From Escherichia coli (lineage in GTDB: Bacteria > Pseudomonadota > Gammaproteobacteria > Enterobacterales > Enterobacteriaceae): DNA of 64,000 nt. Below are positions 1 through 24,000 of this stretch, in pieces. A program made the position numbers. The DNA lies in the NCBI RefSeq assembly GCF_022846255.1, contig NZ_AP025682.1; one strand, given 5' to 3'. How positions within the stretch are numbered: position 1 is the first letter of the stretch; every line of letters starts with the position of its first letter.

Positions 1-3000
1 CGTTGCGAGAAATCATAATAACGGAGGCGGAAAGGATCTTTGATCGCCACAAAAATCTTGCTGGCCACTTGTGCGTAGTCGGGTTCTTCTTGTCCCGGAT
101 AGGCTTCATTGAGGTGCCCAACCAGACATAACTCCGCTTCCTTACGCGTCATTCCAGGCCGGCGCTCGCGGTCAGCATAATAAAGCATGGCGTCAAAGAG
201 ATACATGATTGCCGCCAGCGCATCAAGCTCAACACCATCGAACGGATTTCGCTGAAGGGCGCTATATATTGAATCCAGCGTCCGCACGACCAGCAAGGCG
301 TGAGACTGAATAGACAGCTCACGACGTGCCATTGATTCATTACGAGCCTGCTCCAAAAACCCTAGCGACATAACATTCTCCCTCTGAGACGGAAGCCACT
401 ATAGTACTCCCCTGCCAATTAAGCAAAGAAACTTTGCTTAATTTTTTTTTATAGCAATGTTATTTGTTTTGATGTCATTCGCCTTCTATACTCAGTCGGT
501 ATATCAAACCGCAATTGATTAACCTGCAAATAAGAATAAAACTGATATGTACTACTCAAAGTTTCTTGAGAAACACAAATCCCCCCTCAGCCACGCACAA
601 TGGTTGCGCTTGCGCTATATTGAGCGCCAGCTACTGTGGGAACGAAAAGTCACTTCGCGCATGATTGCTGAAGAGTTTGGCGTCTCGGCGCAACAAGCTC
701 GTACTGATGTAAGAACCTATATGGAGGTCGCTCCAGGCAATGCTATTGAGAAGGGGGCCGGCCGAAAAGGGTATTTCCCCAGTACGACGTTTACGCCTGT
801 TTTGCTGGGAGACAACGATCTGGTCTGGCGTGCGACGGTAGAATTTCAACCGCCGCAAGCGGCCCACGCGCAGGAAATCCCGCTCATCCATCGCGCCGTG
901 CATAGCCGCACGCTGGCAATTTTTTTGTCAGCAATCGAACAGAAAGGACAAGTAAAAGTGACTTATGCGTCAATGGAAAACCCGGAAGGCATATCTCGTA
1001 CACTAAGCCCTACGGTAATTATCACCGTTAACGGGCGTCAGCATGTGCGAGCCTATGACTGGGGAAGTTCGGCGTTTAAGGACTTTGTTTTGGCGCGATT
1101 TCTGGACTCGCCGGAACTGATTGTTCCTGCACCCGCCCCGCCACGCAAAGATACCGCGTGGGAGGTCATAATCCCCGTGCGTTTTATCGCAAATCCAACA
1201 CTAAACAAAGCGCAACAAGAGGTAATTAAGCGGGACTATTTACTTGAACCCTCTGAATTCAACATTCGTGCACCAATGATTTTTTATTTATGCCCTGAAA
1301 ACAATCTGCCTAAAACAGATGATGAATATGCACAAGCTACTGACGCCAGCAGCCACGGCCCCTTTATCTACCCTGTTCTAGCTGTGCACGCCCAAACAGG
1401 GGAGCCTATTCATAAGTACCGCCATGCAGGTGAGAGATAGACATTCTGTTTACTAATAATTTATAGCCATTTTCTGCTCCTGCATCAGAGATATGATGCA
1501 GGAATATTAAATACCAGCCACCTATAAATTATGATTTATTAATTTCTGATTCAGTTAAATCCCTCTGAAAATAGACCCGTTTTAGTTCCATGCATCTTTA
1601 GAAATTCCGACCAAATAATGGGGTCGGCAAACATCTATTTGAGACGTTGGTTCTCATCCTCAAGATCCTTGATTATTTTAATATCAGAAGATTCCATACC
1701 GCCGTATCTGGACTTGCAGTTGTAGTAAGTGGCTTAAGATAAGCCGGCCTCCCGGCAGACATCTTTAACAGTTTGCCCGTATTCAAGCGATTTAATCACG
1801 GCGATAATCTGATTCTCAGTAAAAGGGACTTTACGCATAGCGATCTCCTTCATTGGCAGATTGATTATGCCGGAGGATCTCTAAATGTTAATGGCACGAT
1901 TATGCGGGATATTTACAATACCAGTCCAACCCTCAGCTTACTGCAATGTCAATCAAGAGGGATGGTCCACATTGACGTATCAAAATCGATCTCTGACCAG
2001 CGAGCAAAACGTAGCTCACTGGAGCGAATAAAGATAAGCAGAGTGAGTTCCGTTGCCCAGCGGGTTAGCGGCCTGCCGGTATAGCCGTCTATTTTCTCAA
2101 GTAACTCAGGGATGCGCTTTAACTCCAGCGCCGGACGATGCTGTCGATTACTGGAAGCAACCGCCCCCGCCATCTCTTGTGCCGGGTTATAATCAATTAA
2201 TCCACTTTGCACTGCATAACGCATGATGGCCGTGGTGCGCTGTTGAAGGCGGGAAGCCACTTCAAAACGTCCAGATTTCTCCACGGCTTTAATGGGAATT
2301 AACAGATCGCGGGTGCCCAGTTCAGCAATATTGCGAGCAACAATTGTTGGGAAGATATTGTCCTCCAGGCTCTTTTTTCCACGATTAGCATGATCTTCCG
2401 ACCATTTTTGGTTGGTTACGAGCCACTCTCTGGCAACCTTCTCGAAAGTAATAATCTCTTTCGCCTGCTCTTCTTTCACAGCACGTTTATGCTCACGAGG
2501 ATCGATACCAGCAGCGACCAGCTTTCTGGCCTCTTCCCTTTTCTTCCGCGCATCCGCCAGCGAAACATCCGGGTAAACGCCGAACGCCATCAAATGTTGT
2601 TTACCACCAAAACGGAAACGAAATCGCCAATACTTTGAACCGCCAGGTTTTACAAGTAAAGACATGCCGTCGCCGTCAACAAGTGAATACTCTTTCTCCT
2701 CAGGTTTTGCAGGACGAACTTTAGTATACGTTAGGGCTATAGTGGTCTTCCTTCCATTGGTATCTCGTGAGTATACAAGCAATATCGAATCGGCAAATAT
2801 ACTTATAAGTATACTCACAAGCCTGTTGATGTGGGTTGAGTCAGGTTGACTTCAGTTGAGGAGAAAAGCTGGAAAAGCCTTGCGTAGCGCGGATTTCAGG
2901 CATAAAAAAAGACCTCAGTTGAGGTCTATTTACATACTTTTGGTGCGAAGGCCGGACTCGAACATATTAATTATCCCGTTGTATTTAAGGCTATTTTATC

Positions 3001-21000: not shown

Positions 21001-24000
21001 ACGTTAGTAGACTTGAAAAAAGCTTTGTATGGTGCCGAAGGCCGGACTCGAACCGGCACGTATTTCTACGGTTGATTTTGAATCAACTGCGTCTACCGAT
21101 TTCGCCACTTCGGCACTGAAGAGGTATGCGGAAAACGTTGTGAATTATACCTGTCACGCGCCACCATGCAAGCGCCAGCTTGCTCGCACCTCGCTAAGTG
21201 CTGAAATTTTCAGCATTGCATACCGCGATGTGTAACCTTTGTCACACTCCAGGCACCCCGCCCTGCCATGCTCTACACTTCCCAGACCACACCAGAGAAG
21301 GACCAAAAAATGTCGATGATAAAAAGCTATGCCGCAAAAGAAGCGGGTGGCGAACTGGAAGTTTATGAGTACGATCCCGGTGAACTGAAGCCACAAGATG
21401 TTGAAGTGCAGGTGGATTACTGCGGGATCTGTCATTCCGATCTGTCAATGATCGATAATGAATGGGGATTTTCACAATATCCACTGGTTGCCGGGCATGA
21501 GGTGATTGGTCGCGTAGTGGCGCTCGGGAGTGCCGCGCAGGATAAAGGTTTGCAGGTCGGTCAGCGTGTCGGGATTGGCTGGACGGCGCGTAGCTGCGGG
21601 CATTGCGATGCCTGTATTAGCGGTAATCAGATCAACTGCGAGCAAGGTGCGGTGCCAACAATTATGAATCGCGGCGGTTTTGCCGAGAAGTTGCGTGCAG
21701 ACTGGCAATGGGTGATCCCACTGCCGGAAAATATCGATATCGAGTCCGCCGGGCCGCTGCTGTGTGGTGGTATCACGGTCTTTAAACCGCTGTTGATGCA
21801 CCATATCACTGCCACCAGCCGCGTTGGGGTAATTGGTATTGGCGGGCTGGGGCATATAGCTATAAAACTTCTGCACGCAATGGGATGCGAGGTGACAGCC
21901 TTTAGTTCTAATCCGGCGAAAGAGCAGGAAGTGCTGGCGATGGGTGCCGATAAAGTGGTGAATAGCCGCGATCCACAGGCACTGAAAGCACTGGCGGGGC
22001 AGTTTGATCTCATTATCAACACCGTCAACGTCAGCCTCGACTGGCAGCCCTATTTTGAGGCGCTGACCTATGGCGGTAATTTCCATACGGTCGGTGCGGT
22101 CCTCACGCCGCTGTCTGTTCCGGCCTTTACGTTAATTGCGGGCGACCGCAGCGTCTCTGGTTCAGCAACCGGTACACCTTATGAGTTGCGTAAGCTGATG
22201 CGCTTTGCCGCCCGCAGCAAGGTTGTGCCGACTACCGAACTGTTCCCGATGTCGAAAATTAACGACGCCATCCAGCATGTGCGCGATGGTAAAGCGCGCT
22301 ACCGCGTGGTGTTGAAAGCAGATTTTTGAAAATCATTCGCAGCGCTGATCTGAGGCGCTGCCCTCTTTCGCACATATTCTGTTTTGTCTTATCGCCAGCA
22401 CAGCCTGCCGACATTGTTCGGTGACATTGGCAATATCATGGTTGATATCAATGCGCACAATATCCTGCTCATCTTCTTGTGGACGCTCCAGTGCCTCAAA
22501 CTGACTTTTTAGTAACGCTACCGGCATAAAATGCCCAGCCCGACGCTGCATTCGCGCGAGAATAGTTTCATAGTCGCCATCTAACCAGAGGAAATGAACA
22601 TGGGGGCTACCCTTGCGTAAAATATCACGATACTGTTTTTTTAATGATGAACAGACAATAAATCCTGTTTCATTCTTTTTATAAAGACTGTATGAAGCAT
22701 CATTTAAGCGTTCCAGCCAGGGAAGTCGATCTTCATCAGATAATGGAATACCCTGCGACATTTTATCTATATTTTTGGCTGGATGAAGATCGTCACCATC
22801 AATAAATTTAGCAGATAATAACGCGGCAACCTTGCTACCAATTAATGTTTTACCACTCCCTGAAACACCCATCAAAATAAAGCTTTCACCCGCCATTTAA
22901 AATCTCCTGAATCATCTTACCTGCGGCGATACTACGCCTGGTGGCATAATAATTTCACGTTTTTTTATTTCTGCTGATAAGAATTACAAGGCACATCACG
23001 TTATGCGTAACATAGTAATGTAACAATTTTCTGACGTGATCTTCATCACAAATAATGACAATTAAAACCGCTTAAATGCTTCCGAGGTGTCTACCTGACC
23101 AGTGAGGAATTTATGCAAGTGAAAACACAGTCCTGCGTTGTTGCGGGCAAGAAAACTGTTGCCGTTACCGAGCAGACGATAGATTGGAATAATAATGGAA
23201 CATTAGTACAAATAACCCGAGGTGGAATTTGCGGTTCCGATTTACATTATTATCAGGAAGGAAAAGTAGGTAATTTCATGATAAAGGCACCGATGGTGTT
23301 AGGTCATGAAGTTATCGGTAAAGTTATTCATAGCGACTCATCAGAATTACATGAAGGGCAAACGGTAGCCATTAATCCGTCTAAACCGTGCGGTCACTGC
23401 AAATACTGCATTGAACATAACGAGAATCAGTGTACAGAGATGCGTTTTTTTGGCAGTGCCATGTATTTCCCTCATGTTGATGGTGGCTTTACCCGTTATA
23501 AAATGGTCGAAACGTCGCAATGTGTCCCTTATCCGGCCAAAGCTGACGAAAAGGTTATAGCTTTTGCCGAACCTTTAGCCGTCGCGATTCATGCCGCACA
23601 TCAGGCCGGCGAGTTACAGGGCAAGCGAGTATTTATTTCTGGTGTTGGGCCCATTGGCTGCCTGATTGTCAGTGCAGTGAAAACACTGGGGGCCGCGGAA
23701 ATTGTCTGTGCCGATGTGAGTCCCCGTTCCCTTTCGCTGGGCAAAGAGATGGGGGCGGATGTGCTCGTAAACCCACAAAACGACGACATGGATCACTGGA
23801 AAGCGGAAAAAGGCTATTTCGATGTCAGCTTTGAAGTGTCCGGTCATCCTTCATCAGTGAATACCTGTCTGGAGGTCACTCGTGCACGCGGCGTAATGGT
23901 GCAGGTAGGTATGGGAGGCGCGATGGCAGAATTCCCAATGATGACATTGATTGGTAAGGAGATTTCACTCAAAGGCTCTTTCCGTTTTACCAGCGAATTT

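What the first reader, a model, noticed from the sequence alone, without database searches (positions are those of the whole stretch)
1949..21114. Tandem integration at leuX: intact tRNA and integrase on one side, imperfect tRNA 3'-end repeat and a decayed second integrase on the other
The 23-bp repeat at 2941..2963 copies the leuX 3' end with a 1-nt deletion and marks the far boundary of the ~18-kb island. Immediately beyond it lies a second, truncated P4-type integrase (1949..2818) in the same orientation relative to the repeat as the intact integrase is to leuX. This is the signature of successive integrations at the same tRNA, with the newer island displacing an older one whose integrase has since decayed. 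The 1-nt difference in the repeat may reflect the incoming attP sequence.
Basis: partly seen in the sequence, partly recalled or inferred. Interest (0 to 1): 0.55.

Follow-up and report, generated by a model that had tools for sequence, protein, structure and literature searches.

The report
Two stacked islands at leuX tRNA
An 18-kb mobile island has inserted into the leuX tRNA gene in front of an older defence island whose integrase was already broken, which is a common, well-understood arrangement at a known E. coli hotspot.

Summary
leuX (21030..21114, minus strand) is followed by an intact P4-type integrase (19593..20840). A 23-bp copy of the tRNA 3' end, missing one C, lies at 2941..2963. 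An integrase remnant lies just beyond it.

Comparison with complete E. coli genomes confirms two stacked islands. In strain CFSAN061771 the remnant sits directly at leuX, and window 2964..21053 is a clean 18,090-bp insertion relative to it. Strain TUM11353 carries the same island at 99.7% identity beside a different neighbour.

Two points need correcting. The older integrase was truncated by an insertion sequence (IS) before the new island arrived. It still heads a defence island (BrxR regulator, type III Wadjet) that runs off the window's left edge.

The missing base is not private decay. The 23-bp form is the usual far-end repeat of this island family and of the CP4-like leuX islands: about 1,580 of 1,585 genomes, plus eight other species, beside many unrelated neighbours. 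Where strand exchange occurs remains unresolved, because published PAI II536 results and rare genomes carrying the deletion inside leuX itself point the other way.

This is an ordinary member of a known kind.

The parts
3..371 (-). 5' part of jetA3 (type III Wadjet), cargo of the older island; the gene runs off the window's left edge
   Evidence: PADLOC JetA3 match, E=1.4e-81. The full jetA3-jetB-jetC3-jetD3 set is present in PD23.
547..1440 (+). BrxR/WYL-type regulator of the older island
   Evidence: WYL match, E=1e-15. Annotated as BrxR family in CFSAN061771 and PD23.
1638..1838 (-). IS3-family transposase fragment (pseudogene) next to the point where the older integrase is cut
   Evidence: Read from the sequence. 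Annotated as a transposase pseudogene at the equivalent place in L002, L003, L006 and L010.
1949..2740 (-). Truncated P4-type integrase of the older island: aa 1-261 only, catalytic half missing, start codon ATA in this window
   Evidence: 63% identity to the intact integrase and 75% to K-12 IntB, ending at WTIP. Annotated as a pseudogene in relatives.
2741..2940 (-). Integrase-side arm of the older island, including the K-12-type leuX terminator (hairpin plus T-run, 2904..2926)
   Evidence: Window 2893..2940 is identical to the sequence directly downstream of leuX in K-12 and about 2,700 genomes.
2941..2963 (-). Displaced 23-bp copy of the leuX 3' end (one C of CC missing); this is the far att site of the newer island. 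Its right-hand 18 nt equal the direct repeat of PAI II536.
   Evidence: Insertion boundary confirmed against CFSAN061771. The published primer PaiII_53rev, CGAAGGCCGGACTCGAACA, matches 2946..2964 (PMC3202238).
2964..3040 (+). Left arm of the newer island, with a pair of TACCATCA arm-type-like repeats at 3017..3024 and 3029..3036
   Evidence: The pair starts 54 bp from the core, the same distance as the annotated attP arm repeats of phage P4. The arm is identical in TUM11353.
3686..9506 (+). Variable cargo of four genes: a type II N6 DNA methyltransferase (3686..5371), a 769-aa protein with a BbrUII/HgiDII-like restriction N-terminus and a histidine-kinase-like C-terminus (5364..7673), and two unknown proteins (7642..8763, 8763..9506)
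   Evidence: PADLOC MTase_II E=2e-89 and REase_II E=2.5e-15. NCBIfam BbrUII/HgiDII E=2e-27, below the curated cut-off. Only TUM11353 shares this segment among 5,426 genomes.
9655..11372 (+). Mobilisation module: a small accessory ORF and a MOBP/MobA-like relaxase (10185..11372)
   Evidence: NCBIfam TraI_MobP relaxase E=1.3e-19, below the cut-off. Annotated as relaxase in TUM11353.
11581..13756 (.). Backbone genes of unknown function: DUF4755 (11581..12171, +), 12183..12473 (+), 12851..13273 (-), 13358..13756 (-)
   Evidence: ORFs. Annotation in TUM11353. No family matches.
13757..17905 (-). Overlapping three-gene operon: tyrosine recombinase (16700..17905), second tyrosine recombinase (15385..16710) and a 543-aa protein with no Pfam match (13757..15388). 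Conserved in all relatives of the island.
   Evidence: The same trio is present in L005, L008, L019, L020 and L021.
18288..18575 (-). AlpA-family helix-turn-helix protein, the probable excisionase (recombination directionality factor)
   Evidence: Pfam Phage_AlpA E=3.4e-20. PHROG category 'excisionase and transcriptional regulator'.
18612..19523 (-). DUF6387 family protein
   Evidence: Annotation in TUM11353. phrog_23422 E=4e-30.
19593..20840 (-). Intact P4-type integrase of the newer island (415 aa)
   Evidence: Pfam Arm-DNA-bind_3, Phage_int_M and Phage_integrase. 71% identical to K-12 IntB over its full length.
20841..21029 (-). Integrase-side arm of the newer island, with the TACCATCA pair at 20887..20894 and 20899..20906; a further copy lies inside int at 20606
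   Evidence: Same geometry as the P4 attP arm repeats.
21030..21114 (-). Intact leuX, tRNA-Leu(CAA); 21030..21053 is the 24-bp core shared with the far repeat

Best explanation
Window 2964..21029 is an 18.07-kb integrative mobilisable island.

What it carries. It has a P4-type integrase, an AlpA-type excisionase candidate, a relaxase, an operon of two further tyrosine recombinases with a 543-aa partner, and a restriction-modification-like cargo.

How it arrived. [quoted passage not shown] The tRNA was rebuilt next to the integrase. The previous occupant was pushed 18 kb downstream behind a copy of the tRNA end (2941..2963).

The previous occupant. It is a P4-type defence island carrying BrxR and type III Wadjet. 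Its integrase had already been cut off after residue 261 by an IS insertion, so it can no longer move on its own.

The 23-bp repeat. This form, with one C missing, is not a private mutation of this genome. It is the usual far-end core of this island family and of the CP4-like leuX islands, and it most likely comes with the incoming element.

Shown versus inferred. Shown here: the insertion boundaries, the independence of the two elements, the order of events, and the distribution of the 23-bp form. Inferred: that the P4-type integrase (rather than the other two recombinases) did the integration, that the island can still excise, and where strand exchange occurs.
For: Anatomy:
- tRNA, integrase, repeat and remnant are as described.
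- TACCATCA repeat pairs lie 54 bp inside the far core and about 125-140 bp inside the tRNA-side core, with one more inside int. This mirrors the annotated arm repeats of phage P4 attP.
- An AlpA-family gene and a relaxase are present.

Insertion polymorphism:
- Window 1..2963 and 21054.. are contiguous in CFSAN061771, which has the same remnant directly at leuX.

Independent mobility:
- The island is 99.7% identical over 18.3 kb in TUM11353, with a different left neighbour and only 94% identity in ahr.
- Relatives with the same backbone but other cargo sit at leuX in ST2350, A42, MSI001 and ZH177.

Order of events:
- The identical truncated integrase and IS junction occur in strains without this island, in PD23 and in O157:H7.

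The 23-bp form:
- 134 genomes have it next to the K-12-type flank.
- About 1,580 of 1,585 genomes with the CP4-like island end have a core one base short, and 5 have a perfect core.
- It lies beside at least seven kinds of left flank, including an island arm of the window's own type in CUVM53.
- It occurs in eight other Enterobacterales species.
- The O157-type island beside the same flank and the same remnant has a perfect repeat.
Against: - No excised circle or attP junction was found; the metagenome scan gave 0 hits. Activity is therefore inferred.
- The same island in TUM11353 has a perfect 24-bp far repeat.
- Three genomes carry the one-base deletion inside leuX itself: 702/18, in a clean assembly with this very remnant; O111:H21 strain 15A; and BS-04, an error-rich assembly.
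- In strain 536 the far repeat lacks two bases. Schneider et al. 2011 state that re-integration into the PAI II deletion mutant restores the complete tRNA gene (PMC3202238). That places the exchange on the tRNA-body side of the indel, which on a simple model would make the shortened part chromosomal rather than island-borne.
- The far end of the older island lies outside the window, so its own far repeat could not be seen.
Confidence: 0.85

Rival explanations
1. The missing C is ordinary decay. After integration the displaced tRNA fragment is no longer under selection, and it lost a base in this lineage or in the flank it sits next to.
For: The same island in TUM11353 has a perfect repeat. On the published PAI II536 behaviour (PMC3202238), the segment carrying the indel would be chromosome-derived. 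Other length variants exist at the same spot: two bases missing in strain 536 and a GGTGCGAA triplication in SCU-125.
Against: The identical deletion would have to arise independently next to at least seven unrelated or diverged flanks and in eight other species. It is near-fixed with the CP4-like island end, about 1,580 to 5. It is absent with the O157-type island beside the very same flank and remnant. No other substitutions have accumulated in the 23 bp.
Confidence: 0.1
2. The order is reversed: the element with the broken integrase arrived second, by integrating into the far repeat of the 18-kb island.
For: A far repeat contains the core and could in principle serve as a secondary target.
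Against: The remnant with the same truncation sits directly at leuX in many genomes without the 18-kb island, and behind other islands in unrelated lineages. The 18-kb island is 99.7% identical between two strains whose flanks differ by 6%, so it is the recent arrival.
Confidence: 0.03
3. Everything from 1 to 21029 is one large island, and the 23-bp sequence is an internal chance similarity.
For: Both parts carry defence-type genes and lie in the same hypervariable region.
Against: The two parts occur separately. The boundary is exact to the base. G+C changes at 2964. Zero chance matches are expected for the core.
Confidence: 0.02

Closest known systems
PAI II536 of uropathogenic E. coli 536 (leuX, P4-like integrase, 18-bp direct repeats)
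   Same: Same target gene and same integrase family. The far repeat shares the same 18 nt (CGAAGGCCGGACTCGAAC) followed by AT. Excision, circular intermediates and re-integration at leuX have been shown experimentally for PAI II536 (PMC3202238).
   Different: PAI II536 is a 102-kb virulence island with a CP4-like far end, and its far repeat lacks two bases rather than one. The window island is 18 kb, carries restriction-modification-like cargo and a relaxase, and has a different left arm.
Satellite phage P4 (integrase and attP at leuX)
   Same: Integrates at the same 3' end of leuX. The layout of paired arm repeats around the core is the same. The integrase has the same domain set.
   Different: P4 attP has the full CC and differs from leuX at a T-loop position instead. 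Its arm repeats have a different sequence (GCCCCC type). The window island has no P4 replication or capsid-size genes.
KpLE2 / IntB region of E. coli K-12, known as E. coli defence hotspot 37
   Same: The 48 bp downstream of the displaced repeat equal the sequence downstream of leuX in K-12. The remnant integrase is 75% identical to IntB. leuX is described as the most occupied defence hotspot, with cargo replacement (PMC12707154).
   Different: K-12 has a single array headed by a full-length IntB. Here a further island has been added in front.
Tandem island arrays at tRNA genes (Islander database)
   Same: A regenerated tRNA plus displaced fragments mark the island ends. Arrays are recognised when each member has its own integrase and tRNA fragment; 125 tandem arrays were found in 2,168 genomes (PMC4383910).
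   Different: The older member's own far fragment cannot be seen in this window.
EARL / ROD21-like islands such as ICEKp258.2
   Same: They combine a P4-like integrase, an AlpA-family factor, a DUF6387 protein, a relaxase and restriction-modification cargo, and are low in G+C (PMC10763509).
   Different: They target asn tRNA genes, and DUF6387/AlpA lie at the opposite end from the integrase. They carry pilus and TraD genes and lack the two-recombinase operon. Relatedness was not tested here.

Membership tests
tRNA-targeting genomic island with P4-type (arm-binding) tyrosine integrase | Integrase gene directly downstream of the intact tRNA, with arm-binding, central and catalytic domains | tested here: met
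   19593..20840 starts 190 bp from leuX. Pfam Arm-DNA-bind_3, Phage_int_M and Phage_integrase. 71% identical to IntB.
tRNA-targeting genomic island with P4-type (arm-binding) tyrosine integrase | Direct repeat of the tRNA 3' end at the far boundary | tested here: met
   23 of 24 nt at 2941..2963. The boundary is exact against an unoccupied reference.
tRNA-targeting genomic island with P4-type (arm-binding) tyrosine integrase | Arm-type repeats on both sides of the core | tested here: met
   TACCATCA pairs at 3017/3029 and 20887/20899 in the same orientation, in P4-like geometry. Binding itself was not tested.
tRNA-targeting genomic island with P4-type (arm-binding) tyrosine integrase | Excision to a circle and re-integration | not testable with these tools
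   The only indirect test, a metagenome scan for the attP junction, gave 0 hits.
Tandem island array (Islander criteria) | Each member has its own integrase gene and its own displaced tRNA fragment | tested here: inconclusive
   The newer island meets both criteria. The older island has an integrase pseudogene, but its far end lies beyond window position 1.
Tandem island array (Islander criteria) | Members occur separately in other genomes | tested here: met
   Older element alone: CFSAN061771 and at least nine others. Newer element with another neighbour: TUM11353.
Integrative mobilisable element | Relaxase present and no mating-pair (type IV secretion) genes | tested here: inconclusive
   The relaxase match has E=1e-19 but is below the curated cut-off. 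No secretion genes appear among the 17 ORFs. oriT was not identified and transfer was not tested.
Gamma-mobile-trio (GMT) or Tn554-like recombinase trios | Significant match of the recombinases and partner to GmtY/GmtZ/GmtX models | tested here: not met
   GmtY scores are 22-24 bits against a cut-off of 340. The 543-aa partner matches nothing.
Restriction-modification system (cargo) | A methyltransferase together with a cognate nuclease | tested here: inconclusive
   The methyltransferase match is clear (E=2e-89). The partner matches BbrUII/HgiDII only over its first 200 residues, at 96 bits against a cut-off of 550.

The most novel reading that the evidence does not exclude
The indel may sit inside the strand-exchange (overlap) region of this integrase family: attP carries the short form and leuX carries the full form. 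Every integration or excision would then leave a one-base heteroduplex that segregates at replication. Integrants with an intact leuX keep the short form at the far repeat. Half of all excisants would inherit a crippled 84-nt leuX, which would make loss of the island costly (the tRNA is held hostage). It would also make this spot a hotspot for length variants.

This single model would account for five observations:
- the short form follows the island type;
- rare perfect far repeats exist;
- three genomes have the deletion inside leuX;
- a two-base-short variant and a triplicated variant exist;
- the published PAI II536 deletion mutant has an incomplete leuX that re-integration repairs (PMC3202238).
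Probability: 0.2. Interest if true: 0.55.

Novelty: new member of a known kind. Interest (0 to 1): 0.3.

Why it matters
It matters little as a discovery. leuX is already described as the busiest defence-island hotspot of E. coli, and stacked islands at tRNA genes are catalogued.

The locus is still useful in three ways:
- It is a clean, datable example of island accretion, with a recent 18-kb arrival in front of an immobilised defence island.
- It carries a rare restriction-modification-like cargo, seen in only one other of 5,426 complete E. coli genomes.
- It shows that the 'imperfect' far repeat is a family signature rather than decay. This affects how island ends are called automatically. 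It also poses a small, testable question: where do P4-type integrases cut, and does island loss damage leuX?

Tried and rejected
- A mismatch-only search for the core misses the far repeat because the difference is an indel. Regular expressions and BLAST were used instead.
- I first concluded that the deletion belonged to the remnant's flank and that excision would always cripple leuX. This rested on PD23, ST2350 and 702/18. Wider sampling showed the short form beside many flanks and in other species, and a perfect repeat with the O157-type island beside the same flank. I rejected that reading as the main one.
- A metagenome scan for an attP junction (island right end, core, then AT) found nothing.
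- The BLAST search of the phage collection with the leuX end did not list P4 among its top rows. P4 was fetched directly instead.
- Williams 2002 and Bishop 2005 are not held in the library. The three crossover sub-sites are cited from the Islander paper only.
- BS-04 also shows the deletion inside leuX, but it is an indel-rich assembly (9 gap openings in 2.5 kb) and was discounted.
- Membership of the GMT trio family was considered and rejected on score.
- Rfam found nothing but the tRNA in 1..22000.

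
Full report
**What is in the window**

The window holds a single tRNA gene, tRNA-Leu(CAA) = leuX, at 21030..21114 on the minus strand. ahr and the idn genes lie to its right. To its left, 190 bp from the tRNA 3' end, a 415-aa ORF (19593..20840, minus strand) has the three domains of arm-binding phage integrases. It is 71% identical to K-12 IntB over its whole length.

The last 24 nt of leuX read TGGTGCCGAAGGCCGGACTCGAAC on the plus strand (21030..21053). 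At 2941..2963 the same string recurs with one C of the CC missing. A substitution-only search cannot see this copy. Between the two copies G+C is 0.30-0.36, against about 0.47-0.53 outside.

Left of the short copy lies the first 261 codons of another P4-type integrase. It is 63% identical to the intact integrase and 75% identical to IntB, and it stops at ..WTIP before the catalytic half. The true start, at 2740, is ATA here and ATG in relatives.

**Are these two elements?**

Yes. In CFSAN061771, and in at least nine other complete genomes, the same remnant sits directly at an intact leuX. Window 1..2963 and 21054.. align to adjacent bases there. So 2964..21053 (18,090 bp, including one core copy) is a clean insertion.

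Conversely, TUM11353 carries the same island at leuX at 99.7% identity over 18.3 kb, with a different left neighbour (a type I restriction system and no remnant). Its ahr gene is only 94% identical to the window's. The island was therefore acquired horizontally and recently.

The same remnant is also preceded by quite different islands: a 39-kb dnd/dpt-bearing island with a CP4-like far end (cbtA/yeeU genes) in PD23, and another type in O157:H7.

**Order of events**

The remnant's truncation point and the adjoining IS3-family transposase fragment (about 1638..1838) are the same in all these genomes. This includes genomes without the 18-kb island and genomes from distant lineages. The integrase was therefore already dead when the new island arrived. 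'Has since decayed' is the wrong order.

The older element is also more than a remnant. It continues leftwards with a BrxR/WYL regulator (547..1440) and the start of jetA3 (3..371, E=1e-81). In relatives this belongs to a complete type III Wadjet system followed by further nucleases. Its far end lies outside the window.

**The newer island**

From leuX leftwards it carries, in order:
- the integrase;
- a DUF6387 protein;
- an AlpA-family protein, the usual excisionase type for P4-like integrases;
- an overlapping operon of two further tyrosine recombinases and a 543-aa protein with no family match;
- several unknown genes;
- a MobA/MOBP-like relaxase;
- a four-gene cargo next to the far repeat. 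The cargo holds a type II N6 methyltransferase, a protein whose N-terminus resembles BbrUII/HgiDII restriction enzymes and whose C-terminus resembles histidine kinases, and two unknown proteins.

Relatives at leuX in ST2350, A42, MSI001 and ZH177 keep the backbone and swap the cargo: Kiwa, other methylases, HNH nucleases, the Hxs system. This is the pattern expected at what is described as E. coli defence hotspot 37 (PMC12707154).

Pairs of TACCATCA repeats 12 bp apart lie 54 bp inside the far core (3017, 3029) and about 125-140 bp inside the tRNA-side core (20887, 20899). One more copy lies inside int (20606). Phage P4, which also integrates at leuX, has its annotated arm repeats in the same geometry: a pair 54 bp from the core on one side, a pair about 113 bp away on the integrase side, and one inside int. 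This supports the P4-type integrase as the enzyme that set the island's ends. Which recombinase actually acts remains an inference.

**The missing base**

I first read it as a mutation linked to the remnant's flank. The same short form occurs with other islands beside the same flank (PD23, ST2350). A synthetic 'scar' query (flank, short 3' end, then the leuX body) also found strain 702/18, a clean assembly in which this very remnant abuts an 84-nt leuX.

Wider sampling changed the picture:
- The short core plus the K-12-type flank occurs in 134 genomes.
- With the CP4-like island end, the core is one base short in about 1,580 of 1,585 genomes and perfect in 5.
- It lies beside K-12-type, TUM-type and two further flank types.
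- Islands of the window's own family have it beside TUM-type flanks in A42 and ZH177.
- In CUVM53 it lies between an arm of the window's island type and a P4-like satellite.
- The exact short core followed by AT occurs in representative genomes of eight other Enterobacterales species beside unrelated sequences. Six of the eight have this island family's left arm.
- By contrast, the O157-type island beside the same K-12-type flank and the same remnant has a perfect repeat.

The short form therefore follows the island, not the neighbour. Independent identical decay at seven or more flanks is not credible.

**What does not fit**

- TUM11353's copy of the same island has a perfect 24-bp repeat.
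- P4's own attP has the full CC.
- Three of 5,424 genomes have the deletion inside leuX itself: 702/18, O111:H21 strain 15A, and the error-rich BS-04.
- In strain 536 the far repeat of PAI II is two bases short (TGGTCGAAGG...). This leaves exactly the 18-nt identity that matches a published PAI II primer. Schneider et al. 2011 report that re-integration into the PAI II deletion mutant restores the complete tRNA gene (PMC3202238). So excision there leaves an incomplete leuX.

On a simple model, that last result puts strand exchange on the tRNA-body side of the indel. The short segment would then be chromosome-derived.

Three models remain:
1. Exchange occurs within the last six nt of leuX. This fits the comparative data but not the strain 536 result.
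2. The overlap region spans the indel, and the heteroduplex segregates at replication. This fits everything but is mechanistically unproven.
3. The mutation recurs in the displaced fragment. This fits the strain 536 result but not the comparative data.

The Islander authors place such crossovers in the T loop or at the T-stem/acceptor-stem junction (PMC4383910), which does not settle the matter. P4's T-loop mismatch with leuX argues against a T-loop overlap (inference).

**Comparison with what is known, and verdict**

Everything here has close precedents:
- PAI II536 and P4 at the same site.
- IntB/KpLE2 in K-12.
- Catalogued tandem arrays at tRNA genes.
- leuX as a defence hotspot.
- EARL-type islands with a P4-like integrase, AlpA, DUF6387 and a relaxase (PMC10763509).

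The island is a new member of a known kind, and its cargo is rare. The only mildly open question is the origin and consequence of the one-base-short core, which a simple attP/attB PCR would settle.

Noticed in passing
window 13757..17905 (-): The island carries three tyrosine recombinases in all. Besides the P4-type integrase, there is an overlapping operon of two recombinases (401 and 441 aa) and a 543-aa protein with no Pfam, PHROG or NCBIfam match. The operon is conserved in every relative. It also occurs without a P4-type integrase near ypjA in O55:H7 CB9615 (L008). Its role is unknown.
   Followed up: partly
window 3686..9506 (+): The cargo operon (N6 methyltransferase, a BbrUII/HgiDII-like N-terminus fused to a histidine-kinase-like C-terminus, and two proteins with no family match) is found in only one other of 5,426 complete E. 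coli genomes. It may be an uncharacterised restriction or defence system.
   Followed up: partly
L006 5049..5132 (strain 702/18); also O111:H21 strain 15A (H330): These genomes have an 84-nt leuX lacking one G of the acceptor-stem 3' strand, still annotated as tRNA-Leu. In 702/18 it directly abuts the same truncated-integrase remnant as the window.
   Followed up: partly
L016 about 2470..2522 (strain SCU-125); L033 (strain 536): Other length variants occur at exactly the same spot of the displaced repeat. SCU-125 has GGTGCGAA repeated three times, and PAI II536 has a two-base loss (TGGTCGAAGG).
   Followed up: no
window 2893..2940 and equivalents in L004, L005, L009: A stretch of about 55 bp next to the core ('ggatttcaggcataaaaaaag' plus a hairpin) acts as the leuX terminator. 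It is shared, or homologous with compensatory hairpin changes, among the integrase-side arms of several different P4-type islands.
   Followed up: partly
window 2738..2740: The remnant integrase's start codon is ATA in this window but ATG in PD23 and CFSAN061771. This is a further private lesion. The whole remnant is about 2% diverged from every complete E. coli genome searched.
   Followed up: no
L034 3586..4120 (strain CUVM53): This is a different stack: a P4-like satellite prophage sits in front of a decayed island of the window's type. The integrase-side arm of that decayed island directly adjoins the short core.
   Followed up: partly
window 22000..64000: This part was not examined beyond noting ahr (21268..22329) and idnK next to leuX.
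   Followed up: no
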